A model generated the notes under the pieces. That model worked only from the letters and a program-made list of their open reading frames with translations, searched no databases and was not told the DNA's origin. A stretch of DNA of 64,000 nt. Source: an uncultured Anaerolineales bacterium (GTDB lineage: Bacteria > Chloroflexota > Anaerolineae > Anaerolineales > UBA11858). Positions 43,154 to 59,704 of this stretch are shown piece after piece; position 1 is the first letter of the stretch, and every line of letters begins with the position of its first letter. The position numbers and the translations under genes are program-made. The stretch is from positions 1,288 to 65,287 of the forward strand of contig CAZTWV010000014.1 in assembly GCA_964618295.1 (NCBI GenBank), in the 5' to 3' direction.

Positions 43154-43165
43154 TCCTGTCGGGGC

Positions 43166-44311
43166 TCAGCTGCGGCCCCGGCCAAATAAACCTTTCTTTT
43201 TCTTCCGGCTGATCTGTCGGTTTTCTTCCAACCGGCGCTGCACGGTGCGGCAAATTGCCTCTTCCGTCAGCGGGGATTCTGCCATCAGCCAGGAAAAATC
43301 TTCCGGGGAGAGCGCCAGCAGTTCGACCGGTCCCTGGTCCGAGGCCCGGACGCTGGCAATTGCTTTTCCGCCCCGGAGGAGGGAAATCTCACCGAAGAAA
43401 TCATTCTGGGTCAGAGATGTGATCACCTGGTCGTCGCTGAAGCGGCCCTGGAGCACGATCTCGACCTCCCCGCTCTGGATCATGTAAAAATTATCCACGC
43501 TCTTTTTCTGCTCGAGGATCATTTCCCCTGGCTGATAAGTAACCAATTCCACCCGGTGGTCGAGCTCCTTCATCAGTGGATGACTAACCAGGGGCAGAGC
43601 CTGGGCAATCGTTTCGTTCACCAGTTCCCCGTCGGAGATAAACACAGTCCGGGAGGATCTTTCGGTCATGGTCGGATCGTGGGTCACCATCAGGATGGTT
43701 TTTCCACCCCGGGAAAGCTCTTCAAAAAGATCAATAATTTCTTCGGCAGCCCTGGTATCCAGGTTCCCGGTGGGTTCGTCGGCGACCAGGATCGGGGGAT
43801 CGTTAGCCAGGGCCCGGGCAATCGCTGCCGCCTGCTGCTGGCCGCGGGATATCGAGCGGGGCAGCATCTGGGCCTGGTCCAGAAGGCCGACCCGGTCCAG
43901 GAGCTCCATCGCTTTCTTGGGCCGCTGATCTATTTCGTACATCCCGACATAATCCATGGGAAGCATCACGTTTTCCAGGATATTGAGCATCGGCAGGAGC
44001 TGGAAGAATTGGAAGATGATCCCCAGGTTGCGGCCGCGCCACAGCGACCGTTTGCTCTCGGTCATTTTGTGAATGTCCACTCCATCTACCATTACCCGGC
44101 CGCTGCTGGGATGGTCGATGCCGGTGATCATGTTCAGTAAAGTAGATTTCCCGCTGCCGGATTTGCCGATCACAGCCGCAAATTCTCCCTCGGTCAGCTT
44201 CAGGTCAATGCCTTTCAGCGCTGTGAATTCTCCCGCGGTGCTGATGAAAGTTTTCACCACGCTTTCCAGGCGGACAATCTCGGGAGGGCGGGGGTTGGTG
44301 ATCGCTGTCAT
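43166..44311 (-). CDS. ABC transporter ATP-binding protein fused to a C-terminal cyclic-nucleotide-binding (CAP-effector-like) domain
   Basis: Walker A GKSGSGKST, signature ISRGQQQAAAIARAL, Walker B ILVADEPTGNLD. The C-terminal ~130 aa carry a cNMP pattern (FYMIQSGEVEIVL...DFFGEISLLRGGKAIASVRA). Confidence 0.8.
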   Translation of the reverse strand: MTAITNPRPPEIVRLESVVKTFISTAGEFTALKGIDLKLTEGEFAAVIGKSGSGKSTLLNMITGIDHPSSGRVMVDGVDIHKMTESKRSLWRGRNLGIIFQFFQLLPMLNILENVMLPMDYVGMYEIDQRPKKAMELLDRVGLLDQAQMLPRSISRGQQQAAAIARALANDPPILVADEPTGNLDTRAAEEIIDLFEELSRGGKTILMVTHDPTMTERSSRTVFISDGELVNETIAQALPLVSHPLMKELDHRVELVTYQPGEMILEQKKSVDNFYMIQSGEVEIVLQGRFSDDQVITSLTQNDFFGEISLLRGGKAIASVRASDQGPVELLALSPEDFSWLMAESPLTEEAICRTVQRRLEENRQISRKKKKGLFGRGRS

Positions 44312-45021
44312 CAGGATTCCTCTCCTTTCTCCAGTTCGCCGTCCGAAATCCTGACATGCCGTGTAAAACGGGGCAGTAGACCGCGGTCGTGGGTCACCAT
44401 TAAAATAGTGTGGCCGGCTTTGATCAGGTCCTCGAAAATCTTAAAGATGCTGTCGGCTGTGACTGAATCCAGGCTGCCGGTGGGTTCATCAGCGACCAGG
44501 ATCGGAGGGTCATTCGCCAGGGCCCGGGCAATGGCCACCCGCTGCTGCTGCCCGCCGGAAATCTGGGTCGGATATTTTTCCACATGCTCAATCAGGCCCA
44601 CGCTTTCCAGGAGGGTCAGGGCCCGTTCTTTGCTCTTCCGGGGGTGGTACAGGCCGCACATATCCATCGGCAGAATTACATTCTGGGTCAGGGTCAGCAT
44701 CGGCAGGAGCTGGAAGGACTGGTAAATCACACCCATCGTTCGACCCCGCCAGAGTGTGAGTTCATTTTCCGTCAGTTCTTCAAGGTTGAAAGATTCTCCA
44801 TTGGCCTGGACGTGGACCCGTCCGTCCGTCAGCTGGTCGACTCCGGTCACCATGTTCAGCAGGGTGGATTTGCCGGCCCCGGATTTTCCGATAATTCCCA
44901 GGAATTCTCCGGGATAAACTTCCAGATCCACACCTTTAAGAGCAGGGAAGGCTCCGGCGCTGGTGTGATAGTGCTTAACCACGCCGCACATTTCAATCAA
45001 GGGAGAGTTAGTTTGATTCAT
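44311..45021 (-). CDS. ABC transporter ATP-binding protein (MacB/LolD type)
   Basis: Walker A GKSGAGKST, signature ISGGQQQRVAIARAL, Walker B ILVADEPTGSLD. The start is set at the ATG at 45021 (MNQTNSPLIEM), which avoids overlap with the TetR gene. The stop overlaps the next start (TGATG). Confidence 0.85.
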   Translation of the reverse strand: MNQTNSPLIEMCGVVKHYHTSAGAFPALKGVDLEVYPGEFLGIIGKSGAGKSTLLNMVTGVDQLTDGRVHVQANGESFNLEELTENELTLWRGRTMGVIYQSFQLLPMLTLTQNVILPMDMCGLYHPRKSKERALTLLESVGLIEHVEKYPTQISGGQQQRVAIARALANDPPILVADEPTGSLDSVTADSIFKIFEDLIKAGHTILMVTHDRGLLPRFTRHVRISDGELEKGEES

Positions 45022-45041
45022 TTGCAGTGTGTGCTCCGCTG

Positions 45042-45635
45042 TCAATTTGAATCCAGCCTCTGGGTCATCACCAGCCAGGTGGGTTTGATCACCAGGTCGG
45101 TGAAAATCTGGCCCATTTTTTGAGGGCTGTGTTTGAGATCGTTTTCCAGCCACCAGCGCATTAACGCAAAAGCGGCGGTAATGATGTGGTTGGCAGCCAC
45201 ATCGGCCGGGATGTTCTCCTGGGGCAGGCTTTTCAAAAATGTCTCCGCTTTCTCACAGGCCCGCTTCATGACTGGATCCAGAGCAAAACCGGAACTGTCG
45301 TCCAGCAGCAGGAAGCGCAGTCCATCCTCGTTGTCCCGGATGTGCTCAAAAATAGTCTGGCTGATCTGGTTAAAAAACTCGACCGGATCCTCCATCAGCT
45401 CCCCGGGGAGGGGCAGATCCAGGACGCTGTAAAAATCATCCAGCCGGTCCTGGGAGACCGCGATCAGCAGTTCATCCAGCCCGTTGTAATGCCGGAAGTA
45501 GGTCCGGTAGCCGACATCCGCGGCTTCGGTCACGTCCTGGATGGTGATGTTTTTGTAGCCTTTCTCGAGAGCGACCTCAATCAGGGCATCTCCAAGCAGT
45601 TTCTGGGTCCTGCGAATCCGGCGGTCTTCCGTCAT
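45042..45635 (-). CDS. TetR/AcrR-family transcriptional regulator
   Basis: N-terminal HTH RRTQKLLGDALIEVALEKGYKNITIQDVTEAADVGYRTYFRHY. It is the first gene of the efflux operon. Confidence 0.85.
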   Translation of the reverse strand: MTEDRRIRRTQKLLGDALIEVALEKGYKNITIQDVTEAADVGYRTYFRHYNGLDELLIAVSQDRLDDFYSVLDLPLPGELMEDPVEFFNQISQTIFEHIRDNEDGLRFLLLDDSSGFALDPVMKRACEKAETFLKSLPQENIPADVAANHIITAAFALMRWWLENDLKHSPQKMGQIFTDLVIKPTWLVMTQRLDSN

Positions 45636-46348: not shown

Positions 46349-47449
46349 TCACTCCTTGAGCTTGATTTTCGGCTGCGGCGGCTCCGGCTTCTCAGGGCGG
46401 CGGAAACGAACGATCACGTTTGGTAGAAATAACAGCCCGACGAAAACCAGCAGCAGACCGCCGAAGACCGGTGCAGGCACCGCGCCTGTCACCTCTGGAA
46501 CCAGGCCTCCCGGGTTGTAGGTGACTGCTTCCATCTCTTCGTCTTCAGTGCCAGCCGGAGCATCTGCCAGGCGGGCACTCAGGGAGCGGTTAACGCCGTC
46601 CCTGAGGCTGGAGGGTGAAGTGTAGGTCAGCTGGTATTCGCTTTTGAAAGAAGCTGCGTAGGCCTGGTAGATTTCATCCAAACTTCCGGTATCTTCTGCG
46701 AAGCTGTACACCCCGCCGCTGTTTTCCGCAAGATAGGTCAGGGCTTCAACATCCAGGGCGGTTTTCTCTGCCAGATCCTGGTCTGGATCGCCCAATCCGA
46801 TGGTGGAAATTGAAAGTCCGGCCGGGCCGATCTGCTGCAGGACCGTCTCCGGAGAGGATTCACTGAGGGTGTCCAGCCCGTCCGTGATGGCGACAATTGC
46901 CGCCCGTCCGCTGACACCCTCCATGATCCCGGCTGCCTCGACCAGGGCATCATACATGGCGGTGTCATCCTTCGCTTCCAGACTCTGAATTGCGGACAGG
47001 ATCAGATCCCGGTCTGTGGTCAAAGGCTGGACATAGTCCGTCTCGGTGTGGAAAGTCAGCAAACCGACCCGGTCTGCGGGTCGGAGCTGCTCCACGAACA
47101 GTACTGCGGCCTGCTTGGCGGCCTTTAGTTTATCGAGATAGAGCATGCTTCCGGAGATATCCACGGCCAGCAGCACATTCAGCGGTGGGATTTCACCGGC
47201 GCCGGTGATGCTCTCCGGCGGGATGACTTGACCGTTCTCCAGGAGCTGGATTCGGTCGGGGTCCACTCCCAGGGGCTGTCCCTGGCTGTCGCTGACCGCT
47301 ACATAGACAGTGACCTCGGGGAACTGTGAGGTATCGACCTGGGTGATCCGCACCCCGGGACCATCACCCTGAGGCAGAGGCTGGAAAGCGCTCATGCTGA
47401 GCAGGATGCTCAAAACCAGAATCAAGCGGGGGAAGGGGGATTGCTGCAT
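46349..47449 (-). CDS. secreted, C-terminally membrane-anchored von Willebrand factor A (vWA) domain protein
   Basis: Signal peptide LILVLSILLSMSAF, MIDAS VLLAVDISGSM (DxSxS) and later DGLDT. The C-terminal TM helix PAPVFGGLLLVFVGLLFLPNVIV is followed by a basic tail. Confidence 0.8.
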   Translation of the reverse strand: MQQSPFPRLILVLSILLSMSAFQPLPQGDGPGVRITQVDTSQFPEVTVYVAVSDSQGQPLGVDPDRIQLLENGQVIPPESITGAGEIPPLNVLLAVDISGSMLYLDKLKAAKQAAVLFVEQLRPADRVGLLTFHTETDYVQPLTTDRDLILSAIQSLEAKDDTAMYDALVEAAGIMEGVSGRAAIVAITDGLDTLSESSPETVLQQIGPAGLSISTIGLGDPDQDLAEKTALDVEALTYLAENSGGVYSFAEDTGSLDEIYQAYAASFKSEYQLTYTSPSSLRDGVNRSLSARLADAPAGTEDEEMEAVTYNPGGLVPEVTGAVPAPVFGGLLLVFVGLLFLPNVIVRFRRPEKPEPPQPKIKLKE

Positions 47450-47451
47450 GG

Positions 47452-48315
47452 TTATTTCCTTTCGTGGTAGACCAGCTCGGTGTGGCCCATTTTTATGGTC
47501 TGGCCTGAGCGCAGGCGGGTCTGTTCAATTTTCTTGCCGCCGATAAAAGTTCCACTCAGGCTGATGTCCTTGAGATTGAAATGAGAGTCCGCCCCGGTCA
47601 GCAGGGCGTGCTGGGGATCGATATCCGGATCGGGAAGCACAATATCCGCTTTTAAAGCGCTGCTCCCCAGATAGGCAGCGGGACCGCCGGATCGGATAAA
47701 TTTATCAAGGATGAATTCTGAACCCTGCATTTTACCGCTGGTCACCTCCAGCCAGGCTTTTGACAGCAGCAGGGCAATCAGGGCAATGAAAACCCCGATG
47801 GCTGCTCCCAGCAAGCTCAATCCCAGGGCTTTCCCGTAGAGCGGATTGTTGATCACGGAACCGATGCCTTCCAGGAGAGCACCTCCCAGCACCCCGCCCA
47901 GGGTTCCGCCCAGAGCAGGTTTCCAGATCTCGCTGGCGCTGGTGACCCCGAAGGCCAGTCCTAAAAGCAGGCCGAATACTCCCCAGCCCAGGGATCGGCC
48001 TGGAAAACCGCCGCCCAGGATCTGGAATAAAGCTTCGGCAACCGGTAGACCGACCGCGCCTCCCACCAGACCTAATCCTCCGTTGATCAGGCTGGATTTC
48101 AGAATCCGCAGCAAACGGCGGGAGATCAGCCCTTCAGAAAACCCGATCAGGACCCCGATGCTGAGTCCGATCAGACCTCCTACCGGGATTTCGCTCAGGT
48201 AGAGATTGGACCAGAAGGATAGTCCCAGGGCGTTGCTGGCCTGCCAGCCAATCAAACCGCCCATCGCTCCCAGTACGGCGTAATAATACAGCCTCATCGT
48301 TCTACTCATTTTCAT
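47452..48315 (-). CDS. polytopic Gly-rich membrane protein with C-terminal FHA domain
   Basis: About 7 glycine-rich hydrophobic helices are followed by an FHA pattern (LGSSALKADIVLPDPDIDPQHALL...DISLSGTFIGGKKI...LRSGQTIKMGHTELVY). Confidence 0.75.
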   Translation of the reverse strand: MKMSRTMRLYYYAVLGAMGGLIGWQASNALGLSFWSNLYLSEIPVGGLIGLSIGVLIGFSEGLISRRLLRILKSSLINGGLGLVGGAVGLPVAEALFQILGGGFPGRSLGWGVFGLLLGLAFGVTSASEIWKPALGGTLGGVLGGALLEGIGSVINNPLYGKALGLSLLGAAIGVFIALIALLLSKAWLEVTSGKMQGSEFILDKFIRSGGPAAYLGSSALKADIVLPDPDIDPQHALLTGADSHFNLKDISLSGTFIGGKKIEQTRLRSGQTIKMGHTELVYHERK

Positions 48316-48961
48316 CGGTTTGTTCTCCCTTCGATAAAGGTGAATCAGCGGTCAGGTTTCGCCAGCGGACTACACTGCGGGAATTTTGACCGGCTAATTC
48401 ATGGAAACCGTAATAATAACGTCCCTCCAGTTTGCCGTCCCGGTCCCGGATGAAAAACCCGGCCTTTCGGCTGTGGGGTTCGATCACCAGGGCAACCTGG
48501 TAGGGATGAGGGAAGAAATGGTTGTGAAGGAAAAGGTCGTAGTCGGATAAAAAGACGCTCATCCGGGGATGGGTGTGGTACCAGCCCACCAGCTCCTTCT
48601 CGGGATATTTTTCTTCCATGGTATCGTACAGCGTCAGCTGGCTGTCCTGTGTGAATGTCAGGTGAGCGCTGCCGTGCCGGATATAGCGGGCCGGCAGGCA
48701 GCGTTCGATGACAATGTATTCCTGTCCGGAAGCCTGGTCCGACCTCCAGTTGCCGATCAGCCAGCCCCCGACTTCATTCTCCAGGTCGCTGTGAGCGTGG
48801 GCGTTGGCCCTGGCGTAGGCTTTCTGGGTCATGTAAATCTCGGTCCCCGGGGCCCGAGGCTCGATTTGCTCGGGTTCTGAGCGCCAGCGCAAAGCGTGGG
48901 GGCGGGGGATAAAACCCGACCGGGGGATGGGGGCTTCGATGGGCAGCAAGCGGATGGTCAC
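48302..48961 (-). CDS. JAMM/MPN+ (JAB) metalloisopeptidase
   Basis: Catalytic Glu in ENEVGGWLIG and a complete JAMM motif GWYHTHPRMSVFLSDYD (HxHx7Sx2D). GTG start after gaggaagg. Confidence 0.85.
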   Translation of the reverse strand: MTIRLLPIEAPIPRSGFIPRPHALRWRSEPEQIEPRAPGTEIYMTQKAYARANAHAHSDLENEVGGWLIGNWRSDQASGQEYIVIERCLPARYIRHGSAHLTFTQDSQLTLYDTMEEKYPEKELVGWYHTHPRMSVFLSDYDLFLHNHFFPHPYQVALVIEPHSRKAGFFIRDRDGKLEGRYYYGFHELAGQNSRSVVRWRNLTADSPLSKGEQTDENE

Positions 48962-48997
48962 AGGATCCTTCCTCTGGAAATTGTGGGGGGCTGGTGG

Positions 48998-49264
48998 TCA
49001 GCCCGCAGTTACATCGGCGGTCATCACCAGCTGGTCGTTCTCCGGGACGCCGGCTTCTGCCAGGGTTTCTTCTTCCTGCAGTTCGCGGCCCAGGGCTTTG
49101 CTGTCCAGCCGGTAGCCCATCGGGCGGCCGTCCGGACCGGTGGTCGGCAGCTCCAGTGAGGTGGTCAGCTCCGGGATCAGATCCCGGATTTCAACATCAT
49201 CGGGGACTTCAGCGGTGCGGGTGCCTCCCGAGGGGAGCACCAGGGTTAAGGTTAGATCGGCCAT
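48998..49264 (-). CDS. ubiquitin-like beta-grasp protein (88 aa) ending ...TADVTAG
   Basis: RBS ggaggt is present. Size and alternating pattern are typical of a beta-grasp fold. The protein ends in Gly directly before the stop. It is a paralogue of the N-terminal domain of the adjacent E2 (63/88 identical by manual count). Confidence 0.75.
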   Translation of the reverse strand: MADLTLTLVLPSGGTRTAEVPDDVEIRDLIPELTTSLELPTTGPDGRPMGYRLDSKALGRELQEEETLAEAGVPENDQLVMTADVTAG

Positions 49265-49318
49265 GCTTTTACCTCCAGGGTAGTGTTCTGATTTATGGTC
49301 TCTGATGATAAAAAGTAA

Positions 49319-50173
49319 TTATTTCAGGCGGATATTGGGTTTTGATTTTTTGGTTTCTTTAATTTTGACCCGGGTCGGGCGCAGCAGCTCGCGGTTGTCA
49401 ACTGGAAAGGCATTCGGGTTTTTCTCGCGGTAGCTCCGGCTCCAGCGGGCAGCTTCCGGATCCCAGGGAAAAGGCGGTCGGGAGGGATCATCATGATAGT
49501 TCTTATACTGAACCATTTCACCGATCATCAGCACCAGACGGTCCAGGGATCTGCTGGCTGTCCACCAGGCAGCGTCGACGCAAACTGAACCGTTCTGGTG
49601 ATTGATGTTCGGGTGCCAGATTGGGGTCAGCCACTGCATCCCAGGCCAGCGCTGGGGATACTGGTTGTGAAGGTAGATCTCCACCTGGTGGTTGCTGCCA
49701 ATTTTGGGCTTGCCCTGTTTGTTGACCCCGACCACCCCCTTGCAGGTATAGGTCACGGTGTAGCGTTCGGGCGGAAGGCCTTTGCGGGCTGCTTCTGACT
49801 GAAATGAAATTAAATCGCTCCGGGAGGCCAGCTCCTGCATCCGCTGGTAATCGGCCCGCAGGCGGCGCATCCTTGGGCTTTGGTCGAGGGATATCCGGCT
49901 GTTCTTTGCGCCTGCCGTGATATCGGCCGTCAGCACCAGCCGGTCCTCTTCCGGGATACCGGCATCGGACAGGGTCTCGTTCTCCTGCAGCTCCCTGCCC
50001 AGGGCTTTGCTGTCCAGCCGGTAGCCCATGGGGCGGCCGTCGGGTCCGACGGTCGGTAAACCGAGCAGCGAGGTCAGCTCGGCCAGCAGATCGCGTACAG
50101 CGACATCATCGGGGATTTCCGCTTTGCGGGCTCCGCCGTTAGGCAGTACGATGGTCACGTCCAGTTCTGGCAT
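49319..50173 (-). CDS. Ubl - E2 (UBC-fold ubiquitin-conjugating enzyme) fusion protein
   Basis: Residues 1-88 form a Ubl domain. These are followed by E2 helix-1-like RMRRLRADYQRMQEL, then YPQRWPGMQWLTPIWHPNINHQNGSVCVD, which is the canonical UBC YP..pP...f.t.i.HPN(I)...G.(I/V)C motif with the catalytic Cys. Confidence 0.8.
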   Translation of the reverse strand: MPELDVTIVLPNGGARKAEIPDDVAVRDLLAELTSLLGLPTVGPDGRPMGYRLDSKALGRELQENETLSDAGIPEEDRLVLTADITAGAKNSRISLDQSPRMRRLRADYQRMQELASRSDLISFQSEAARKGLPPERYTVTYTCKGVVGVNKQGKPKIGSNHQVEIYLHNQYPQRWPGMQWLTPIWHPNINHQNGSVCVDAAWWTASRSLDRLVLMIGEMVQYKNYHDDPSRPPFPWDPEAARWSRSYREKNPNAFPVDNRELLRPTRVKIKETKKSKPNIRLK

Positions 50174-50196
50174 AAGGTTCTCCTTCTTGCAGTCTT

Positions 50197-51006
50197 TCAG
50201 GGGTGGGAATGGGGGATCTGGCAGGTGCCGGTGATTCCCCAGCAGTCAGTGTGATGGCGGGTTTTACAGATCGGGCAGATCTTCACGCCCCGCGGGTCGT
50301 GTTCCTGGACAGGCTCCAGGCAGTAGGGGCAGATGTGCTCCACATCACCCACGAATGTAATCCCGCTGGCACGGGCGGGCGATTTACTCCTCTTGATTTT
50401 GGGCAGAGAAAGGTTGGGCTTCTGGTTGATCCGGGCCCGGATTGTACGGGTAGGTTCCCGATGCTGGCGGGTCCGGTTCAGGCGGGCTGAATCAGAGAAT
50501 CGTCCGAAAGAAAGCTGGCGGGCCGGGGGCTGGCTGGTCCGATTTTCCTCTGTTCTTGCTGTGGGCTGGATCAGCGGTTTGCGGAAAGCCCGCAGCGCCA
50601 GCATCAATCCGGCGGCAGCCAGGAAAAGCTGGATTAAAGCCTCCCAGTTCGGCCCGGTTTTCGGGGAGGAAAGGGTAATTCCCAGGAATCCTCCCGACAG
50701 GAGCCGGAAGAGCAGCAGGCTGAGGGTGGCAGCGCTGAAAGCAGTCAAGTTCCGAAGCAGCGGAGAATTCTCCCTTAATATCCGACGGGCGGAGAAGCCG
50801 GACAGCAGGCCAACAGCCAGCGGCAGGGTAAATTTCAGCAGGAGATAGGGGACAGCGTGCCGCGCAAAAAAGACCAGCAGCAGGGGCAGGCTGAGCAGGA
50901 CGGTTTGCAGGGCAGTGATCACAATTTTGCCTGCTGCCGAGTGCACAAATCTGTCTAGGGCGGTGGAACCGGTTTTCACCATCAGCGCTCCGCTGTGAAC
51001 CTTCAC
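50197..51006 (-). CDS. membrane protein (about 4 TM) with C-terminal prokaryotic RING-like Cys/His zinc finger (candidate E3)
   Basis: Four hydrophobic helices and a basic/Ser-Pro-rich linker are followed by CPYC-x14-CPIC-x4-H-x2-C-x6-C-x3-H at the extreme C-terminus. The GTG start overlaps the E1 stop (GTGA). Confidence 0.65.
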   Translation of the reverse strand: MKVHSGALMVKTGSTALDRFVHSAAGKIVITALQTVLLSLPLLLVFFARHAVPYLLLKFTLPLAVGLLSGFSARRILRENSPLLRNLTAFSAATLSLLLFRLLSGGFLGITLSSPKTGPNWEALIQLFLAAAGLMLALRAFRKPLIQPTARTEENRTSQPPARQLSFGRFSDSARLNRTRQHREPTRTIRARINQKPNLSLPKIKRSKSPARASGITFVGDVEHICPYCLEPVQEHDPRGVKICPICKTRHHTDCWGITGTCQIPHSHP

Positions 51007-52652
51007 GATCCTGAATCCTTCAGTCTAATCCGTCCCGCTGCCGGGTTTTGTTCTGGATCCTGGATGCGGATTGATTTACCAATCTTAATCCGCTCCCGGA
51101 GAGGGACTTCGGAAGCGGTCGGTTCAAAATGATTAAAATGGAGGGTTTCGTCGAGGTCCCCGGTCAGCTCGTAGAAGCGGTATTCGTAGCCGTCATTGGC
51201 CCGCAGGATATGCAGGGGAGGGACCCCGATGCTGGCCAGGGTGTGATCCAGGAAATCCTCTTCCCCGGTGATCAGGTGGGTCAGCTGGACCTCGCGCATT
51301 GCCCCGCAGCCGGGACAGTGGGCGGCTTCAAAGCTGACCGCGGAAAGCGGCTGCAGGGTCCGTTCCAGGGTCTGGCAGGTCCCGCATTCCAGGGCTAAAA
51401 CCAGCTCCTGGTCGAGCTCAATCACCGCCTGGTCCCCGAGGTCGACCCGGATCACCTGTAAAAGTTCTTTCAGGGTCGTGGTTCCGGCGCTGAGGGGTAA
51501 TTCGGTCACCTCGCCGTAAATCCAGTGACTCTCGCAGTCCTCGCGGGCGGTGTAAGCCGTGGTGTGCATCTGGTTGTTAAGGCCGTTGTAATGCACCACT
51601 TTTCCGGCCGGGACATCCATATCGTGGATCAGCTTGAGCGCTTCCTGGGACTGCATGGCGCCGATGATCGAGGCAATGGTCGGGGTGGTGGGGACCTTTC
51701 CCAGCAGAATGTTCTGGCGGGCCAGGAGGGGACAGGAGTAGCGCAGGGCCAAATCGCGGCGGGCCTGCTCGGTCAGGGTGCATTCGTAGCAGGCGCCCTG
51801 ACCGGGAATGAAAACCCGCACCAATCCCAGCAGTTCCTGGATGGCGCCGTCCACCCAGGGTTTGTTCATCCAGTGGGCAAAACGGTTAACCGCCAGACGG
51901 GCTTCCCGGTTGTCCAGGCAGCCGATCACCACATCCATCCGGCGCACAATCCCCAGGCCGAGGTCGGTGGTGACATCGCCGTGCAGATACTGGACCCGGG
52001 TCTGGGGGTTGAGCTCCTTGCCGCGGGCGGCGACCACCTCGGCTTTCTGGCGCCGGGCATCGGACTCCCGGAAGAGCACCGAGCGGCTCAGGTTGGCGGC
52101 TTCAATGGTGTCAAAATCAATGACGAAAATTTTCCCGACCCCCATCAGGGCCAGGTTTTTGACCACTTCGTTGCCCAGGGCACCGGCTCCAACCACCAGC
52201 ACACTGGCATCAGCAACTTTATCGCGCTCCCACCAGCTGATAAAATCAAAGGTTCCCAGGCGGTCGGTTTTCAGGTTGGGGATCTTGAGCGGTTTTTCCT
52301 TGGCTACCGGCAGGCGCCTGGGACCGTCCGGTCCTTCGCCGGGGCGCTGGATCTTGATTGGTTTGGCAGGCCTGGTTTCATCCTGGGCCAGTCCGGCGGC
52401 CCGGACCAGGTTGTCGCCCTTCAGGGGATGCACAAACCAGCCCACCCCGGGCCGGGCTTCAATCAAGTTGTGCTCGGCCAGGATTTTTAAGGCTTCGCGC
52501 AGACTGGAGCGGCTGACATCAAGCTGTTTGCCGAGTTCGCGCTCGCCGGGAAGGTGCTCCCCGGGCTGGAAATCCCCGTTCAGGATCCGGGCGGCGATCT
52601 GTCCGGCGACGATTTCCGAAAGCGATTTGCGGGGCAGGGGTTGAAGGTTCAT
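51003..52652 (-). CDS. GntR-type winged-HTH fused to E1-like (ThiF/MoeB/UBA) adenylating enzyme
   Basis: wHTH: LPGERELGKQLDVSRSSLREALKILAEHNLIEARPGVGWFV. E1: VLVVGAGALGNEVVKNLALMGVGKIFVIDFDTIEAANLSRSVLF, plus CxxC pairs CYEC and CPGC (and CGTC). The start is set at the ATG at 52652, because the ORF-track extension to 52790 runs through an intergenic repeat. Confidence 0.8.
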   Translation of the reverse strand: MNLQPLPRKSLSEIVAGQIAARILNGDFQPGEHLPGERELGKQLDVSRSSLREALKILAEHNLIEARPGVGWFVHPLKGDNLVRAAGLAQDETRPAKPIKIQRPGEGPDGPRRLPVAKEKPLKIPNLKTDRLGTFDFISWWERDKVADASVLVVGAGALGNEVVKNLALMGVGKIFVIDFDTIEAANLSRSVLFRESDARRQKAEVVAARGKELNPQTRVQYLHGDVTTDLGLGIVRRMDVVIGCLDNREARLAVNRFAHWMNKPWVDGAIQELLGLVRVFIPGQGACYECTLTEQARRDLALRYSCPLLARQNILLGKVPTTPTIASIIGAMQSQEALKLIHDMDVPAGKVVHYNGLNNQMHTTAYTAREDCESHWIYGEVTELPLSAGTTTLKELLQVIRVDLGDQAVIELDQELVLALECGTCQTLERTLQPLSAVSFEAAHCPGCGAMREVQLTHLITGEEDFLDHTLASIGVPPLHILRANDGYEYRFYELTGDLDETLHFNHFEPTASEVPLRERIKIGKSIRIQDPEQNPAAGRIRLKDSGS

Positions 52653-52853
52653 AGGGTTTTGTCCGGGGTACTGGTATGCTGGTCTGACCGGTATACCGGG
52701 TTTATAGCAGATCGGGCCCGCCTTGTCAAGCGGGGGCTGAAAAACCCTGCCAGCGTCCTCGCTGGCGTGACTTTTATTCTCTTGAAGCATTCAAGGCTTC
52801 GGGATATTTCCTCTTTCCCCGCTGGTTTTCGGTCGGTGATATGCTTGGACACA

Positions 52854-52970
52854 CTCATCAGCGAGGACGCTGATGGGAGCTTGGATAGATAGCCAACCTC
52901 CGGGGTACCTGCGTGACCTTGGAAGTTGAGGGTGACGTTCCGGGTGAGTAATCTGGTTTTATCTGCCCGG
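52854..52970. repeat. 117-bp direct repeat, copy 1
   Basis: ctcatcagcgaggacgctgatggg...gccaacctccggggtacctg...ctggttttatc.gcccgg aligns with 53283..53399. Confidence 0.75.
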
Positions 52971-53002
52971 CTGCTGAAGTAGCGGGCTGGTCCTGAAACA
53001 CC

Positions 53003-53034
53003 CGGAGATCAACGGCAAGCTCCGGGAGTGCTCC
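53003..53034. repeat. 32-nt exact repeat (hairpin cggag..ctccg), copy upstream of the atp operon
   Basis: cggagatcaacggcaagctccgggagtgctcc is identical to 60737..60768. Confidence 0.8.
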
Positions 53035-53042
53035 AGCTCTGC

Positions 53043-53166
53043 TGTCATTGCGAGGAGGCCGCCAGGCCGACGCGGCAATCTTCTTGAATTGGAACGATCC
53101 TATTAGTAATTCAGATGATCATTTCTTCCTGAGATATAGATTGCTTCGCTTCGCTCGCAATGACAA
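53043..53166. repeat. MITE-like ~124-bp element (copy 2)
   Basis: tgtcattgcgaggaggccgccaggccgacgcggcaatct...agattgcttcgcttcgctcgcaatgacaa has a perfect 12-nt TIR. It is in direct orientation relative to 46181..46304. Confidence 0.75.
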
Positions 53167-53282
53167 AAGAAAAATTCGCTCCAGCCAGTGTTTCGCACAG
53201 GTGTATTGGAAGGGAAGACCTCCGAGGTCTGGATCTGCTGCCAGCCGCAGTCGGTGTTCGGCCGGCGGCATGTTCGGATAAT

Positions 53283-53399
53283 CTCATCAGCGAGGACGCT
53301 GATGGGTGCTTGGATGGATAGCCAACCTCCGGGGTACCTGGGTGATCCCGGAGGTTGGTGGACCCGTTGCGGGTGAGTATGCTGGTTTTATCCGCCCGG
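53283..53399. repeat. 117-bp direct repeat, copy 2
   Basis: See 52854..52970. The two copies bracket MITE-like copy 2. Confidence 0.75.
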
Positions 53400-53519
53400 A
53401 GGATAAATTGGAAACTGATCAGTGATCACAGATCACCGGGTTGAAAATACTAATTACTACCTTACGATTTACTGATCACTGCTCCGGCCGTCCATTCTGA
53501 TAATAAGTTAACCTGGTTT

Positions 53520-53528
53520 TGCTATAAT
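53520..53528 (+). promoter_or_regulatory. candidate extended -10 promoter (TGcTATAAT) for the atp operon
   Basis: tgctataat lies 92 nt upstream of the atpD GTG. No convincing -35 element is present. Confidence 0.3.
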
Positions 53529-53613
53529 CTGGGATAGATACATTGCCGACTGGTGTTTATTCAGCCGGAGACCACACAACAACAAGTTAAAAGGATCACA
53601 GCGAAGGGAGTGA

Positions 53614-55379
<1,766 letters not shown>

Positions 55380-55383
55380 GCCC

Positions 55384-55677
55384 ATGAACGAAGAATCGGA
55401 CCGCTCCCCTGAAAAAATATTTCCCGCTCTGGTCCGGGAAGGGCTGGGTGTGCTCAGCATCGGCTGGGATCTGGCTCTCCCCATAGTCGGCGGGGTGCTG
55501 CTCGGCCATTTTCTGGACCAGTGGTTGGGCTCCGGATACACCTTCACGCTGGGTTTGCTGGTGCTGGGGGTGATGATCGGTTATTTCAATCTTTCCCGGC
55601 TGATACACCGCCTGAATCAGCAGGATAAGAAACGGAAAGAGCTGGAAGAAGGGACCGGGGAGGAGAAAGACGGATGA
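55384..55677 (+). CDS. atpQ: AtpZ/AtpI-like small membrane protein of N-ATPase operons
   Basis: Two TM helices (GLGVLSIGWDLALPIVGGVLLGHFLD and FTLGLLVLGVMIGYF). The position after atpC matches the N-ATPase gene order. Confidence 0.6.
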   Translation: MNEESDRSPEKIFPALVREGLGVLSIGWDLALPIVGGVLLGHFLDQWLGSGYTFTLGLLVLGVMIGYFNLSRLIHRLNQQDKKRKELEEGTGEEKDG

Positions 55678-55955
55678 TGAGCTGGGTCTGGCTCCTGGTT
55701 GGACTGGGCACGGGACTGGTGATCTGGTTTTCCCAGCGGTCAGCGGTCAAACGCCTGACCCCGGAACGGGCTGCGGCCGGCCGGAGGTCGATTGTGCTGG
55801 GTGCCGTGCTGCGCTGGACCTTGAGCGCCCTGGTCCTGATTCTGGCCCTGGAGCAGGGGATTGGAAGCGGTCTGTTCGCTTTTGGAGGTCTGATGACCGC
55901 CCGCTGGCTGGGGATTTTTTCCTTGCAGGTTTTTCCCCTGCCGGAAATTGAGTAA
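55674..55955 (+). CDS. atpR: N-ATPase AtpR-like membrane protein
   Basis: 93 aa with 3 TM helices and intramembrane/interfacial Arg residues (LRWTLSAL, TARWLGIF). Coupled by ATGA to the preceding gene. Confidence 0.55.
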   Translation: MMSWVWLLVGLGTGLVIWFSQRSAVKRLTPERAAAGRRSIVLGAVLRWTLSALVLILALEQGIGSGLFAFGGLMTARWLGIFSLQVFPLPEIE

Positions 55956-55976
55956 AGGATGAGGAGGATTTAAGCT

Positions 55977-56645
55977 ATGCAGGAAGTATTTCCGGAGGTT
56001 GCCTTCACCGTGATGGGGATTCCGGTTCGTGATACCGTGGTTTCATCCTGGGTGATGATGGCTCTGATTGTGGGGCTGGTGCTGCTGGTCCGGCGCTTGA
56101 AACCGACCGCCCTTGAGATGGTGGTTGATTTCCTGACCGATTTTATCAGCGAGATCATGCGCCGGCCGGCCGGTCCCTTTTTGCCCCTGGTGGGATCGCT
56201 GGCGCTGTATATCGGTGTCGCCAACGTGATCGGCCTGGTGCCTTTCTTGAAGTCGCCTACCAGCGATATCAACACCTCGATTGCCCTGGCACTGGTTGTT
56301 TTCGTAGCCGTGCATGTCTACGGGGTCCGGATCATGGGGCTGGGTGCCTACATAAAAAGCCTGGCCTCCCCGATTTTCCTGCTGCCCCTGGAGCTGATCA
56401 GCCAGGTCAGTCGGACAATTTCCCTCAGCATCCGGCTTTTCGGCAACGTCTTCAGCGCGGAGATTATCATTGCGATTTTGTTTGCCCTGGCACCGCTGAT
56501 TGTGCCCCTGCCTCTGCAGGGATTCAGTATTTTTACCGGCCTGCTGCAGGCCTATATTTTCGCCGCCCTGGCCGCGGTCTATATCGCGGCCGGCCTGCCA
56601 GCCCGGCAGGAAGAATCCGGGGCGGAAGCAGAAATTGAAAACTAA
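55977..56645 (+). CDS. atpB: ATPase a subunit
   Basis: Conserved stator arginine context ISLSIRLFGNVFSAEI (R-x-x-G-N). 5-6 TM helices. Confidence 0.85.
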   Translation: MQEVFPEVAFTVMGIPVRDTVVSSWVMMALIVGLVLLVRRLKPTALEMVVDFLTDFISEIMRRPAGPFLPLVGSLALYIGVANVIGLVPFLKSPTSDINTSIALALVVFVAVHVYGVRIMGLGAYIKSLASPIFLLPLELISQVSRTISLSIRLFGNVFSAEIIIAILFALAPLIVPLPLQGFSIFTGLLQAYIFAALAAVYIAAGLPARQEESGAEAEIEN

Positions 56646-56688
56646 AAAAGCTTAGAACAATTTATGGAAAAAGAGAAGGAGTAGATTT

Positions 56689-56961: not shown

Positions 56962-56974
56962 AAAAGGAGGGAGG

Positions 56975-59701: not shown

Positions 59702-59704
59702 CTT

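What the first reader, a model, noticed from the sequence alone, without database searches (positions are those of the whole stretch)
46349..52652. Seven-gene eukaryote-like ubiquitination operon (wHTH-E1, membrane RING, Ubl-E2, free Ubl, JAMM) co-transcribed with membrane FHA and vWA proteins
Seen in sequence:
- Seven co-directional minus-strand genes are separated by 2-54 nt or overlap. There is a GTGA stop/start overlap at 51003-51006 and a 14-nt overlap at 48302-48315.
- 51003..52652: GntR-type wHTH plus a ThiF/MoeB/E1 adenylation domain (VLVVGAGALGNE, FDTIEAANLSRSVLF, CxxC pairs).
- 50197..51006: a 4-TM protein ending in a Cys/His treble-clef finger, CPYC-x14-CPIC-x4-H-x2-C-x6-C.
- 49319..50173: a Ubl fused to a UBC-fold E2 with the canonical WHPNINHQNGSVCVD motif.
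- 48998..49264: a free 88-aa Ubl ending in Gly.
- 48302..48961: a JAMM isopeptidase with an intact E...HxHx7SxxD motif.
- 47452..48315: a polytopic membrane protein with a C-terminal FHA domain.
- 46349..47449: a secreted, membrane-anchored vWA protein with a DxSxS MIDAS motif.

Established knowledge:
- Ubl/E1/E2/JAB operons in prokaryotes have been predicted by comparative genomics.
- An archaeal Ub-E1-E2-RING-Rpn11 operon has been reconstituted.
- Bil and CBASS Cap2/Cap3 systems use related chemistry in anti-phage defence.

Inference:
- This locus has the full E1-E2-E3-DUB logic, not just E1/E2/DUB.
- It is tied to the membrane through the RING, FHA and vWA proteins.
- It carries its own DNA-binding domain on the E1.
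- The JAMM plus vWA pairing is reminiscent of the proteasome lid pair Rpn11/Rpn10.
- I am not aware of any experimental characterisation of this architecture. Its substrates and role (defence, envelope quality control or signalling) are unknown.
Basis: partly seen in the sequence, partly recalled or inferred. Interest (0 to 1): 0.92.

Follow-up and report, generated by a model that had tools for sequence, protein, structure and literature searches.

The report
Membrane-bound bacterial ubiquitin-like tagging operon
This is a real seven-gene operon from an Anaerolineae (Chloroflexota) bacterium that encodes a complete ubiquitin-like tagging machine (E1, E2, membrane RING E3, two Ubls, JAMM protease) with two membrane partners. 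This kind of system was predicted from genomes years ago but has never been tested in bacteria.

Summary
**Observation.** It is confirmed. All seven minus-strand genes exist at the stated coordinates, and every domain call passes profile searches.

**Conservation.**
- Every catalytic or metal-binding residue checked is invariant in 66-80 homologues.
- The gene order E1, TM-RING, Ubl-E2, Ubl, JAB, TM-FHA, vWA holds in all 83 related loci, all but one from Anaerolineae genomes, with unrelated flanks.

**Prior knowledge.** The kind is already predicted:
- Pfam Prok-RING_1.
- The 'tri-ligase' Ubl systems of Burroughs/Aravind (2011, 2020).
- The reconstituted Caldiarchaeum operon.

I file this as a variant of that kind, not a new category.

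**New details found here.**
1. A PdhR/FadR-type palindrome (TGGTCWGACCA, with outer TGGTAT/ATACCA arms) sits just after a sigma-70-like promoter upstream of E1 in 59 of 63 loci. The GntR domain on E1 therefore probably autoregulates the operon.
2. E1, E2 and vWA end, and JAB begins, with a shared basic/hydrophobic peptide ([KR][IV][KR]L[K]D). This peptide is absent from background ORFs.
3. The FHA domain has lost its phosphothreonine pocket.
4. The vWA domain is predicted to lie outside the cell, so the Rpn10 analogy fails. In a distant relative, vWA is fused through one TM helix to the RING.

**Function.** Substrates and biological role remain unknown.

The parts
52724..52729 (-). -35 hexamer TTGACA of the operon promoter
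   Evidence: Read directly. The pattern TTGACn-N17-TATAAT-like recurs upstream of E1 in related loci.
52701..52706 (-). -10 hexamer TATAAA, with a 17-nt spacer from the -35
52671..52697 (-). Composite palindromic operator GGTATAccGGTCAGACCagcATACCAG, starting 3 nt after the -10
   Evidence: The core GGTC[A/T/C]GACC lies upstream of the E1 start in 59 of 63 loci, 24-64 nt upstream in all but one. The exact 11-mer TGGTCWGACCA occurs exactly once per locus in 55 of 89 loci and once in the 64-kb window.
52741..52766 (-). Terminator-like hairpin plus T-run just upstream of the -35. It may insulate the operon from upstream transcription.
   Evidence: Consensus scan only. Weak evidence.
51003..52652 (-). 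E1 (549 aa). It comprises a GntR/PdhR-like wHTH (aa 12-74, nt 52431-52619), a ThiF/E1 adenylation domain (aa 138-373, nt 51534-52241), a C-terminal Zn-ribbon-containing domain (aa ~380-510), and a basic tail ending ...GRIRLKDSGS.
   Evidence: Pfam and NCBIfam hits. The best PDB matches are UBA7/UBA1 (1e-26) and ThiF (4e-23). Foldseek returns ThiF, UBA3 and SAE2. GxGxxG, R190, K203, D247, C288/C291/C373/H376, C307 and C423/C426 are invariant in 68 of 68 sequences; C446/C449 in 67 of 68.
50197..51006 (-). Four-TM protein with a C-terminal Prok-RING_1 finger (aa 222-266, nt 50209-50343). An alternative ATG start lies at 50982.
   Evidence: AF2 gives 4 TM helices at pLDDT above 90 and the RING at 75-91. 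The domain alone passes the Prok-RING_1 cut-off, and 35 of 35 members match. Ligands C226, C229, C244, C247, H251/H252, C255, C262 and H266 are invariant in 71 of 71.
49319..50173 (-). Ubl-E2 fusion. It comprises a YukD-like Ubl (aa 1-88, ending in invariant DITAG), a variable linker, a UBC core with HPN...C198, and a tail ending ...KPNIRLK.
   Evidence: Pfam YukD and UQ_con. HPN and Cys align with eukaryotic E2s. H187, P188, N189, C198 and DITAG are invariant in 80 of 80. The linker from TAG to the conserved SPR varies from 4 to 11 aa.
48998..49264 (-). Free 88-aa YukD-like Ubl ending ...DVTAG directly before the stop codon
   Evidence: Pfam YukD 3.7e-10. It ends exactly at TAG in 69 of 73 homologues and is an ancient paralogue of the fused Ubl. 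No significant PDB sequence match.
48302..48961 (-). JAB/JAMM metalloprotease, with an N-terminal M-T-I-R-L-L-P peptide
   Evidence: Pfam JAB and Prok-JAB. The best PDB match is Caldiarchaeum CsRpn11, 6fjv, at 2e-6. E63, H129, H131, S139 and D142 are invariant in 76 of 76. The N-terminal motif is present in 52 of 76.
47452..48315 (-). Polytopic Gly-rich membrane protein with a C-terminal FHA domain (aa ~190-282, nt 47470-47748) that lacks the phosphothreonine pocket
   Evidence: Pfam FHA 8.5e-12 and Yop-YscD_cpl 6.5e-10. Alignment to GarA and CT664. GR is replaced by an invariant GS, the canonical Ser by variable A/D, Arg by Pro, and Asn is variable. Hydropathy supports the membrane segments.
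46349..47449 (-). Signal-like segment, then a vWA domain with MIDAS (predicted outside the cell), one TM helix, and a cytoplasmic tail ending ...PKIKLKE
   Evidence: Pfam VWA_2 and VWA. MIDAS residues D97, S99, S101, T163 and D190 are invariant in 66 of 66. Hydrophobic segments at aa 4-27 and 317-351. Tail motif.

Best explanation
This is a self-contained, autoregulated, membrane-assembled ubiquitin-like (Ubl) conjugation and deconjugation system. It is inherited vertically in Anaerolineae.

**Shown by sequence evidence.**
- All enzymes carry intact, invariant active sites.
- The seven genes form one conserved cassette with its own promoter.

**Inferred cascade.**
1. The ThiF-type E1 adenylates the C-terminal Gly of the YukD-like Ubl (...TAG).
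2. E1 probably forms a thioester on the invariant crossover-loop Cys307.
3. The Ubl passes to Cys198 of the UBC-fold E2.
4. The four-TM Prok-RING_1 protein acts as E3 at the inner face of the membrane and promotes discharge onto target lysines.
5. The JAB protease removes the tag. It probably also cuts the Ubl-E2 fusion after the invariant TAG, releasing a second Ubl paralogue and free E2.

**Inferred regulation.** The PdhR-like wHTH on E1 binds the palindrome that overlaps the transcription start and represses its own operon. E1 would thus be both enzyme and repressor, as in BirA. Its occupancy by Ubl or E2, or its recruitment to the membrane, could tune expression.

**More speculative.**
- E1, E2 and vWA end, and JAB begins, with short terminal basic/hydrophobic peptides. 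These may dock the proteins onto a membrane hub, either the phospho-independent TM-FHA protein or the TM-RING.
- The extracytoplasmic vWA/MIDAS domain may couple an outside ligand to RING activity inside the cell.

Substrates are unknown.
For: **Domain identities and thresholds:**

**Similarity to solved structures.**
- The E2 HPN...C motif aligns with eukaryotic UBCs.
- E1 is closest to the active adenylation domains of UBA7/UBA1 and to ThiF.
- JAB is closest to the Caldiarchaeum Rpn11-like DUB.

**Invariant residues:** every catalytic or ligand residue checked is invariant in 66-80 homologues, apart from one sequence at E1 C446/C449.

**Synteny and inheritance.**
- The seven-gene order holds in all 83 loci, and 389 species-representative genomes carry a relative of the E2.
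- E2 identity is 71-82% and E1 66-81% across these genomes.
- Flanks are not conserved and are often housekeeping genes, such as nusG-rplKAJ, or an ATP synthase operon in the window.

**Operator.**
- TTGACn-N17-TATAAT is followed by TGGTAT-nn-TGGTCWGACCA-nn-ATACCA in 59 of 63 loci. The 11-mer occurs once per locus.
- The wHTH's best named match is PdhR, at 7.8e-15. From my own knowledge, the PdhR/FadR box is TGGT-N3-ACCA.

**Processing site.**
- DITAG is invariant, followed by a variable linker.
- The free Ubl ends at TAG in 69 of 73 homologues.
- A distant relative's Ubl ends TAG-LGR.

**Terminal peptides.**
- A strict C-terminal pattern matches E1 46 of 68, E2 53 of 80 and vWA 43 of 66. It matches none of the other four families and none of 1483 background ORFs.
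- Looser anchoring matches 66 of 68, 79 of 80 and 65 of 66.
- The JAB N-terminal motif is present in 52 of 76.

**Outside-in coupling:** a distant locus, L086, encodes a signal peptide-vWA-TM-Prok-RING_1 fusion next to a homologous TM-FHA.
Against: - There is no biochemical evidence for any step.
- The Ubl ends in Ala-Gly, not Gly-Gly. It has no significant solved-structure relative by sequence. B. subtilis YukD itself is reported not to be conjugated (PMC1779556).
- The E1 model is poor (mean pLDDT 58.9). The crossover loop and a UFD-like C-terminal domain could therefore not be confirmed structurally.
- The RING fold rests on the ligand pattern and a Pfam match just above the cut-off. Whole-chain Foldseek was uninformative, and PDB profile hits to TRIM5 RING are weak (E 0.013).
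- The operator-wHTH pairing is inferred from position and family resemblance, not from binding data.
- The docking-tail and vWA-sensor ideas rest on pattern alone. Only two distant loci with vWA/FHA and two without were compared.
Confidence: 0.6

Rival explanations
1. It is an anti-phage or other conflict system, like Bil, CBASS Cap2/Cap3, or the vWA-MoxR-FtsH 'tri-ligase' systems. In that case Ubl conjugation would target an invader protein or arm an effector.
For: - Related Ubl chemistry is used in defence. PADLOC gives E1 and JAB hits to CBASS and Bil models.
- A distant Ubl-E2 relative, L084, sits beside EAD8-TPR and DO-GTPase2 genes, which are typical of conflict systems.
- Tri-ligase systems are described inside conflict systems (PMC7159879).
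- In L001 the cassette lies next to an integrase/relaxase element.
Against: - The PADLOC hits cover only the generic adenylation and JAB cores. There is no hit for E2, RING, Ubl, FHA or vWA.
- The locus contains no effector, MoxR, FtsH, EAD or CD-NTase gene.
- It is a single, highly conserved cassette with 71-82% E2 identity and the same architecture in all 83 loci. Flanks are variable and often housekeeping. This pattern is the opposite of patchy, fast-evolving defence islands.
Confidence: 0.15
2. It is a constitutive membrane-protein quality-control or turnover pathway, analogous to ERAD. A polytopic RING E3 would tag misfolded or surplus membrane proteins for extraction and degradation. FHA and vWA would act as substrate adaptors rather than signal sensors.
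For: - A polytopic RING E3 with a cytosolic E2, a Ubl and a DUB is the logic of Hrd1/Doa10-type ERAD (my own knowledge).
- The pattern of vertical inheritance and high conservation looks like housekeeping.
- All three accessory proteins are membrane proteins.
Against: - No AAA+ unfoldase or protease is encoded in or next to the cassette.
- The RING's TM domain shows no detectable similarity to known retrotranslocon E3s.
- An operon held under autorepression fits an inducible response better than a constitutive pathway.
Confidence: 0.15
3. The Ubl is not conjugated to proteins. The E1/Ubl pair would serve sulfur transfer or another adenylation reaction, or the Ubl would be a structural or assembly factor, as YukD is in type VII secretion. 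The E2-like and RING-like proteins would then be non-catalytic.
For: - The Ubl belongs to the YukD family. B. subtilis YukD is reported not to be conjugated (PMC1779556).
- E1 scores nearly as well against ThiF/MoeB as against eukaryotic E1s.
- The C-terminus is AG, not GG.
Against: - The exposed C-terminal Gly is kept in 69 of 73 homologues.
- E2 keeps HPN and the catalytic Cys in 80 of 80, JAB keeps all metal ligands in 76 of 76, and the RING keeps 8 ligands in 71 of 71.
- There is no rhodanese domain and no sulfur-cofactor gene in the cassette.
Confidence: 0.05

Closest known systems
Prokaryotic 'tri-ligase' Ubl systems with a prokaryotic RING (Burroughs, Iyer & Aravind 2011; Pfam Prok-RING_1; Kaur et al. 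2020, PMC7159879)
   Same: One neighbourhood holds separate E1, RING-type E3 and JAB genes plus a protein fusing a Ubl to an E2. The Ubl is YukD-like. From my memory of the Pfam text, the bacterial RINGs carry TM helices. The JAB is proposed to release the Ubl from the fusion.
   Different: - The variants I could read about are embedded in MoxR-vWA-FtsH conflict systems, with EAD1 and caspase-like effectors, or are coupled to Pup. None of those genes is present here.
- This variant adds a GntR wHTH on E1 with its own operator, a second free Ubl, a TM-FHA and an extracytoplasmic vWA.
- I could not read the 2011 paper, so I cannot say whether this exact seven-gene form was already drawn there.
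Caldiarchaeum subterraneum Ub-E1-E2-RING-Rpn11 operon (reconstituted; PMC5654768, PMC6043591)
   Same: It has the same E1/E2/RING/JAMM logic in one operon. The JAB protein here finds CsRpn11 as its best solved relative. A JAMM enzyme processes the Ub precursor.
   Different: - The archaeal modifier is a true ubiquitin with Gly-Gly, whereas this one is YukD-like and ends Ala-Gly.
- The archaeal RING is small and soluble, whereas this one is polytopic.
- The archaeal operon has no FHA, vWA or HTH.
- The archaeal system has been tested in vitro, whereas this one has not.
Bil (BilABCD), type II CBASS Cap2/Cap3 and Bub (6E/DUF6527) bacterial systems
   Same: All use E1/E2-type Ubl chemistry with a peptidase. 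The adenylation and JAB cores give weak PADLOC hits.
   Different: - Those systems have no RING E3.
- Their E2s are divergent (for example the BilB CEHH motif), whereas this E2 has the canonical HPN...C.
- They are patchy defence genes, whereas this cassette is lineage-wide and conserved.
BirA, and MocR-type GntR regulators (enzyme-repressor fusions)
   Same: An N-terminal winged HTH is fused to an adenylating (BirA) or enzyme-fold (MocR) domain. An operator sits at the protein's own promoter.
   Different: The effector domain here is a Ubl-activating E1. No DNA binding or corepressor has been shown, so this is an analogy only (my own knowledge).
PpkA-Fha1 threonine-phosphorylation pathway of type VI secretion
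   Same: A periplasmic vWA domain on a single-pass membrane protein signals to a cytoplasmic FHA protein (my own knowledge).
   Different: The output there is a Ser/Thr kinase and a phosphothreonine-binding FHA. Here there is no kinase, the FHA has lost the phosphothreonine pocket, and the cytoplasmic output would be a RING E3.
Proteasome lid pair Rpn11/Rpn10
   Same: A JAMM protease and a vWA protein occur together.
   Different: Rpn10's vWA domain is cytosolic and carries UIMs. The vWA here is predicted to be outside the cell and has no UIM. The resemblance is superficial.

Membership tests
Prokaryotic tri-ligase Ubl system with Prok-RING_1 E3 | E1 adenylation domain with an intact nucleotide site and a candidate catalytic Cys | tested here: met
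   ThiF 8e-55. GxGxxG, R190, K203, D247 and C307 are invariant in 68 of 68.
Prokaryotic tri-ligase Ubl system with Prok-RING_1 E3 | UBC-fold E2 with HPN and a catalytic Cys, fused to an N-terminal Ubl | tested here: met
   UQ_con 4e-11 and YukD 2e-10. The motif aligns with eukaryotic E2s. Invariant in 80 of 80.
Prokaryotic tri-ligase Ubl system with Prok-RING_1 E3 | RING of Pfam family Prok-RING_1 with eight Zn ligands | tested here: met
   The domain alone scores 30.9 bits against a 29.1 cut-off, and 35 of 35 members hit. The C4-H-C-C-H ligands are invariant in 71 of 71. The 3D fold is not independently confirmed.
Prokaryotic tri-ligase Ubl system with Prok-RING_1 E3 | JAB peptidase with E...HxH...S..D in the same neighbourhood | tested here: met
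Prokaryotic tri-ligase Ubl system with Prok-RING_1 E3 | Conserved gene neighbourhood across genomes | tested here: met
   All 83 loci share the order. Core E1, RING, Ubl-E2 and JAB also occur together in distant loci L084, L086 and L087.
Prokaryotic tri-ligase Ubl system with Prok-RING_1 E3 | Actual Ubl conjugation to proteins | not testable with these tools
   This needs biochemistry or mass spectrometry.
FtsH-MoxR-vWA ternary conflict system with tri-ligase (Kaur et al. 2020) | MoxR AAA+ and tandem FtsH-type ATPase genes, EAD1 fused to the Ubl, and an effector such as a caspase-like peptidase | tested here: not met
   None of these domains occurs in the seven proteins, nor among the flanking gene families that recur across the related loci.
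Archaeal/eukaryote-type ubiquitin operon (Caldiarchaeum) | Modifier of the ubiquitin family proper, ending in Gly-Gly | tested here: not met
   The Pfam ubiquitin hit is only E 0.13, whereas YukD scores 3.7e-10. The C-terminus is TAG.
Bil (BilABCD) defence system | Matches to the BilA, BilB, BilC and BilD models, with no E3 | tested here: not met
   There is only a weak BilD hit (2.5e-7) over the adenylation core, and no BilA or BilB hit. A RING is present.
Type II CBASS Cap2/Cap3 | An E1-E2 fusion protein next to a CD-NTase and an effector | tested here: not met
   E1 and E2 are separate genes, and no CD-NTase is present. The PADLOC hits cover only the ThiF part.
GntR family, FadR/PdhR-like subgroup | N-terminal GntR wHTH | tested here: met
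   Pfam GntR 4e-19. PdhR 7.8e-15, plus NanR, LldR and GlcC. PDB PdhR 5.5e-12.
GntR family, FadR/PdhR-like subgroup | A TGGT-N3-ACCA type palindromic operator at a regulated promoter | tested here: met
   TGGTCWGACCA is present, or the one-mismatch core GGTC[A/T/C]GACC, in 59 of 63 loci right after the -10. Binding itself is not tested.
GntR family, FadR/PdhR-like subgroup | C-terminal all-helical FCD effector domain | tested here: not met
   The C-terminal part is a ThiF/E1 domain.
Canonical phosphothreonine-binding FHA domain | FHA fold | tested here: met
   Pfam FHA 8.5e-12 and Yop-YscD_cpl 6.5e-10. PDB matches to CT664 and GarA.
Canonical phosphothreonine-binding FHA domain | Conserved Arg (GR), Ser (SxxH) and Asn (NG) that contact phosphothreonine | tested here: not met
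   GS218 is invariant. Position 233 is variable A/D/S. P234 replaces Arg. Position 254 is variable.
Rpn10-like ubiquitin receptor | A cytosolic vWA domain plus ubiquitin-interacting motifs | tested here: not met
   The signal-like N-terminus and the C-terminal TM with RFRR place the vWA domain outside the cell. No UIM hit. The topology is predicted, not measured.

The most novel reading that the evidence does not exclude
In Anaerolineae, Ubl conjugation serves as a housekeeping outside-in signalling pathway, taking the role that phosphorylation has in vWA-kinase-FHA modules.
- An extracellular vWA/MIDAS sensor gates a polytopic RING E3.
- All soluble enzymes are held on a phospho-independent FHA/RING membrane hub by a shared terminal peptide.
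- E1 doubles as the operon's repressor, sensing its own load of Ubl or E2, as BirA senses its adenylate.

This would be a bacterial ubiquitin-type signalling machine, with an E3, that is not a defence system.
Probability: 0.2. Interest if true: 0.85.

Novelty: new variant of a known kind. Interest (0 to 1): 0.6.

Why it matters
- **An untested class.** Bacterial Ubl systems that include a RING-type E3 have been predicted since 2011. As far as the searchable literature shows, none has been tested. The only reconstituted prokaryotic E1-E2-RING cascade is archaeal.
- **A good entry point.** This Anaerolineae cassette is compact and very strongly conserved. It is present in hundreds of species, and every active site is intact.
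- **Concrete experimental handles.** The analysis provides a defined operator for the E1 repressor, a likely JAB cleavage site (TAG|), candidate docking peptides, and a predicted topology.
- **Broader significance.** If conjugation is shown, it would bear on how E3-dependent ubiquitin signalling and membrane-anchored RING ligases arose before eukaryotes. It would also show a non-defence role for ubiquitin-like tagging in bacteria.

Tried and rejected
- **Burroughs et al. 2011 and the related reviews.** I tried PMID 21547297, PMC5938088, PMC5881585 and PMC2732565. None is held. Whether this exact seven-gene form was already published therefore stays open.
- **Whole-chain Foldseek of the RING-TM model.** It returned only weak helical-bundle matches. 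The RING is too small relative to the TM part, so I fell back on ligand conservation and Pfam/PDB profiles.
- **AF2 model of E1.** It was poor (pLDDT 58.9). I could not decide whether the C-terminal Zn-ribbon domain is a UFD. Foldseek only confirmed the adenylation fold.
- **PADLOC.** There were no system-specific hits.
- **Rfam over 45.6-53.7 kb.** Nothing was found.
- **Consensus promoter/terminator scan.** It missed the real promoter because TATAAA fails its rule. Its terminator count is not above chance.
- **Search for an eighth conserved gene.** No flanking family is shared by more than about 18% of loci.
- **Acceptor-lysine idea for the tails.** I rejected this as a general explanation. 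The Lys positions are not conserved in E1.
- **Acidic FHA pocket centred on Asp233.** I rejected this idea because position 233 is variable.
- **PDB sequence search with the free Ubl.** There was no significant match.

Full report
**1. Observation**

The region 46349-52652 holds seven co-directional minus-strand ORFs exactly as described.
- The junctions are a GTGA overlap at 51003-51006, gaps of 23, 54 and 36 nt, a 14-nt overlap at 48302-48315, and a 2-nt gap.
- Base composition matches that of the neighbouring genes.
- Two start codons need comment.
  - The E1 start at 52652 gives 549 aa, identical in length to the public protein P0241. It lies downstream of a conserved promoter. The longer ORF from 52790 is not supported.
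  - The public RING protein P0121 has 261 aa, which would fit a start at the internal Met (ATG 50982). The GTG start and its overlap are possible but unproven.

**2. Domain identities**

Pfam places the proteins as follows.

| Protein | Pfam families |
|---|---|
| E1 | GntR (4e-19) + ThiF (8e-55) |
| TM-RING | Prok-RING_1 |
| Ubl-E2 | YukD (2e-10) + UQ_con (4e-11) |
| free Ubl | YukD (4e-10) |
| JAB | JAB / Prok-JAB (2e-9) |
| TM-FHA | FHA (8.5e-12) and Yop-YscD_cpl (6.5e-10) |
| vWA | VWA_2 (1e-15) |

- **RING.** The whole-protein hit is below the gathering score (26 against 29.1 bits). The isolated domain passes at 30.9 bits, and all 35 family members tested match Prok-RING_1, with PHD and zf-RING_2 as the next families.
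- **Solved structures by sequence.**
  - The E2 aligns its WHPNINHQNGSVCVD with the HPN...Cys of eukaryotic UBE2K, UBE2N and UBE2D.
  - The E1 matches the active adenylation domains of UBA7/UBA1 (1e-26) about as well as ThiF (4e-23).
  - The JAB protein's best match is the Caldiarchaeum Rpn11-like deubiquitinase.
  - The free Ubl has no significant match.
- **Structure models.**
  - AlphaFold of the RING protein gives four confident TM helices, a disordered linker (aa 140-220) and a small C-terminal domain at pLDDT 75-91. Whole-chain Foldseek was uninformative.
  - The E1 model was poor, and Foldseek only confirmed the ThiF/UBA3/SAE2 fold.

**3. Conservation and synteny**

- The Ubl-E2 has 1913 close homologues. 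The best 120 are 74-96% identical, and those that carry an organism name are from Anaerolineae/Chloroflexota MAGs.
- A scan of one genome per species found 389 genomes encoding a relative. The 80 best were all Anaerolineae/Anaerolineales, apart from one MAG labelled Eisenbacteria.
- In all 83 loci fetched, the order E1, RING, Ubl-E2, Ubl, JAB, FHA, vWA is kept. Sixty loci are intact, and the rest are cut by contig ends or frameshifted.
- Flanking genes differ. The most common neighbour set, nusG-rplK-rplA-rplJ, occurs in 14 of about 78 loci.
- Invariant residues are listed below.

| Protein | Invariant residues | Homologues |
|---|---|---|
| E2 | H187, P188, N189, C198 | 80 of 80 |
| JAB | E63, H129, H131, S139, D142 | 76 of 76 |
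| E1 | GxGxxG, R190, K203, D247; Zn site C288/C291/C373/H376; crossover-loop C307; C423/C426 of a second Cys4 cluster | 68 of 68 |
| E1 | C446/C449 of that cluster | 67 of 68 |
| RING | C226, C229, C244, C247, H251/H252, C255, C262, H266 | 71 of 71 |
| vWA MIDAS | D97, S99, S101, T163, D190 | 66 of 66 |

Only the biochemical condition is untested.

**4.

*(a) Promoter and operator.*
- Upstream of E1, the window reads TTGACA (52729-52724), a 17-nt spacer, TATAAA (52706-52701), then GGTATAccGGTCAGACCagcATACCAG (52697-52671), then ATG at 52652.
- The same layout recurs in related loci. The core GGTC[A/T/C]GACC lies upstream of the start in 59 of 63 loci, 24-64 nt upstream in all but one. It is usually TGGTCWGACCA with outer TGGTAT/ATACCA arms.
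- The exact 11-mer occurs once per locus in 55 of 89 loci. In the window the site occurs once, allowing one mismatch to that 11-mer.
- The wHTH's best named relative is PdhR. From my own knowledge, the PdhR/FadR box is TGGT-N3-ACCA.
- The operator starts 3 nt after the -10, so binding should repress transcription. E1 therefore most likely autoregulates the operon.
- The GntR fusion is specific to this variant. E1s in four distant relatives lack it.

*(b) Shared terminal peptides.*
- E1, Ubl-E2 and vWA each end in a variable basic linker followed by a short motif:
  - E1: G-[RK]-[IV]-x-L-x-D
  - E2: K-P-[RK]-I-[RK]-L-K
  - vWA: K-P-R-[IV]-K-L-K-(D)
- A strict pattern matches 46 of 68, 53 of 80 and 43 of 66 sequences. 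It matches none of the other four families and none of 1483 background ORFs from the same loci.
- Looser anchoring matches 66 of 68, 79 of 80 and 65 of 66.
- The JAB protein carries a similar peptide at its N-terminus (MTIRLLP; 52 of 76).
- The RING proteins have a related strand (consensus IKLxG) just before the finger.
- Distant systems that also have vWA and TM-FHA keep such tails. Two four-gene cores without them do not, but this comparison is small.

*(c) The two Ubls.*
- They are ancient paralogues. Free-to-free identity between genomes is 81%, fused-to-fused is 77%, and free-to-fused within a genome is 72%.
- The free Ubl ends exactly at TAG in 69 of 73 homologues.
- The fused Ubl ends with an invariant DITAG followed by a linker of variable length.
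- A distant free Ubl ends TAG-LGR.
- This points to cleavage after TAG by the JAB protease.

*(d) The FHA domain.* It keeps its fold but not the phosphothreonine-contacting residues.
- GR is replaced by an invariant GS.
- The canonical Ser is a variable A/D/S.
- Arg is replaced by Pro.
- Asn is variable.

This resembles the phospho-independent FHA domains of secretion-system scaffolds, consistent with the Yop-YscD_cpl hit.

*(e) Topology.*
- The vWA protein has a signal-like N-terminus and a C-terminal TM helix followed by RFRR. Its vWA/MIDAS domain should therefore face outward and its tail inward.
- E1, E2 and JAB have no hydrophobic segments.

*(f) A distant fusion.*
- Locus L086, whose E2 is 35% identical, encodes a signal peptide-vWA-TM-Prok-RING_1 fusion followed by a homologous TM-FHA.
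- This ties an outside vWA to an inside RING in a single polypeptide.
- In the same locus, the C-terminal Zn-ribbon domain of E1 is a separate 125-aa protein.

**5. Mechanism**

- The best-supported reading is an E1, E2, membrane-RING conjugation cascade for a YukD-like Ubl.
- JAB both reverses conjugation and probably processes the Ubl-E2 fusion.
- The cassette is expressed from one promoter under repression by E1 itself.
- These steps are inferred from intact, invariant active sites, synteny and the operator. None has been shown biochemically.
- Two further ideas are hypotheses that fit the patterns but rest on little:
  - the terminal peptides dock E1, E2, JAB and the vWA tail on the TM-FHA or TM-RING hub;
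  - the vWA domain gates the E3 from outside.
- Substrates are unknown. The tail lysines are unlikely to be the general acceptor, because they are not conserved in E1.

**6. Rivals**

- **Defence or conflict role.** This is possible, because relatives occur in conflict contexts (PMC7159879). Several findings argue against it for this variant:
  - there are no system-specific PADLOC hits;
  - no effector, MoxR or FtsH gene is present;
  - conservation is uniform and high;
  - the neighbours are housekeeping genes.
- **ERAD-like quality control.** This cannot be excluded, but no unfoldase or protease is linked to the cassette.
- **Non-conjugating role for the Ubl.** This is unlikely given the intact E2, RING and JAB sites and the exposed terminal Gly.

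**7. Comparison with known systems and novelty**

- The locus meets every testable defining feature of the predicted prokaryotic tri-ligase/Prok-RING_1 systems.
  - Kaur et al. 2020 (PMC7159879) describe JAB, E1, a prokaryotic RING and a Ubl-E2 fusion in bacteria, and a related system in Thermofonsia.
  - Hennell James et al. 2017 (PMC5654768) mention complete bacterial operons.
- It is not a Bil, CBASS or FtsH-MoxR ternary system, and not a true-ubiquitin archaeal operon.
- I found no experimental study of a bacterial RING-containing system.
- I could not read Burroughs et al. 2011, so this exact form may already be drawn there.
- I rate it a new variant of a known, predicted kind.

**8. Scores**

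| Item | Value |
|---|---|
| Interest | 0.6 |
| Confidence in the core mechanism | 0.6 |
| Most novel reading not excluded (non-defence outside-in Ubl signalling, with E1 as a BirA-like repressor): probability | 0.2 |
| Interest if that reading is true | 0.85 |

Noticed in passing
window 52671-52729 (minus strand); upstream of E1 in L001-L083: A conserved sigma-70-like promoter is followed by a PdhR/FadR-type composite palindrome (TGGTAT-nn-TGGTCWGACCA-nn-ATACCA). It is present in 59 of 63 loci and occurs once per locus.
   Followed up: yes
window 51006-51041 (E1 tail), 49322-49348 (E2 tail), 46352-46380 (vWA tail), 48941-48961 (JAB N-terminus): Four of the seven proteins share a terminal basic/hydrophobic peptide ([KR][IV][KR]L[K]D-like). 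It is absent from the other three proteins and from 1483 background ORFs. Its function is unexplained. A docking role seems more likely than an acceptor-lysine role.
   Followed up: partly
L086 12430-13989 and 14018-14938: A distant relative encodes a signal peptide-vWA-TM-Prok-RING_1 fusion next to a homologous TM-FHA. Its E2 carries two tandem Ubl domains. Its E1 is split into a ThiF part and a separate 125-aa Zn-ribbon domain. The source organism is unknown.
   Followed up: partly
L020, L031, L039, L042, L047, L001, L067 and others, 73-118 nt upstream of E1 (once at -198): A second motif, TAGTAC[TC], sometimes forms the full palindrome AGTAC-N4-GTACT. It occurs upstream of the promoter in about 25 of 63 loci but not in the window. 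It could be a site for another regulator. In L001 a MerR-family gene is divergently transcribed from that side.
   Followed up: partly
window 53620-60568 (plus strand): An F-type ATPase operon has the gene order beta, epsilon, two small membrane proteins (one weakly like 'ATPase_gene1'), a, ..., alpha, gamma. This is the order known for N-ATPases. The 'alternate F1F0' NCBIfam models score below their cut-offs, so the assignment is open.
   Followed up: partly
window 52800-53600: About 800 nt between the Ubl operon promoter and the ATPase operon contain no convincing ORF and no Rfam match. A terminator-like hairpin, readable on both strands, lies at 52748-52767.
   Followed up: partly
window 40727-45635 (minus strand): Immediately downstream of the operon lie a TetR-family regulator gene and a MacB/FtsX-type ABC transporter, consisting of two ATPase genes and an 808-aa duplicated permease. 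This neighbourhood is not conserved in related loci.
   Followed up: partly
L001 1-4896: In one related genome the cassette lies a few kb from a coupling-protein/relaxase/integrase cluster, which looks like an integrative mobilisable element. This was not seen in the other loci examined.
   Followed up: no
window 50982-51006: The RING gene may start at the internal ATG (50982, giving the 261 aa of the public protein) rather than at the GTG that overlaps the E1 stop codon.
   Followed up: partly
window 52322-52241 region (E1 aa 110-143): The linker between the wHTH and the ThiF domain carries a strongly conserved peptide, GPRRLPVAKEKPLKIPNL..DRLGTFDFISWWER. The corresponding N-terminal segment is kept in distant E1s that lack the HTH (for example IRIPNPRTDRLTPFEHLSWW in L084). 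Its role is unknown.
   Followed up: no
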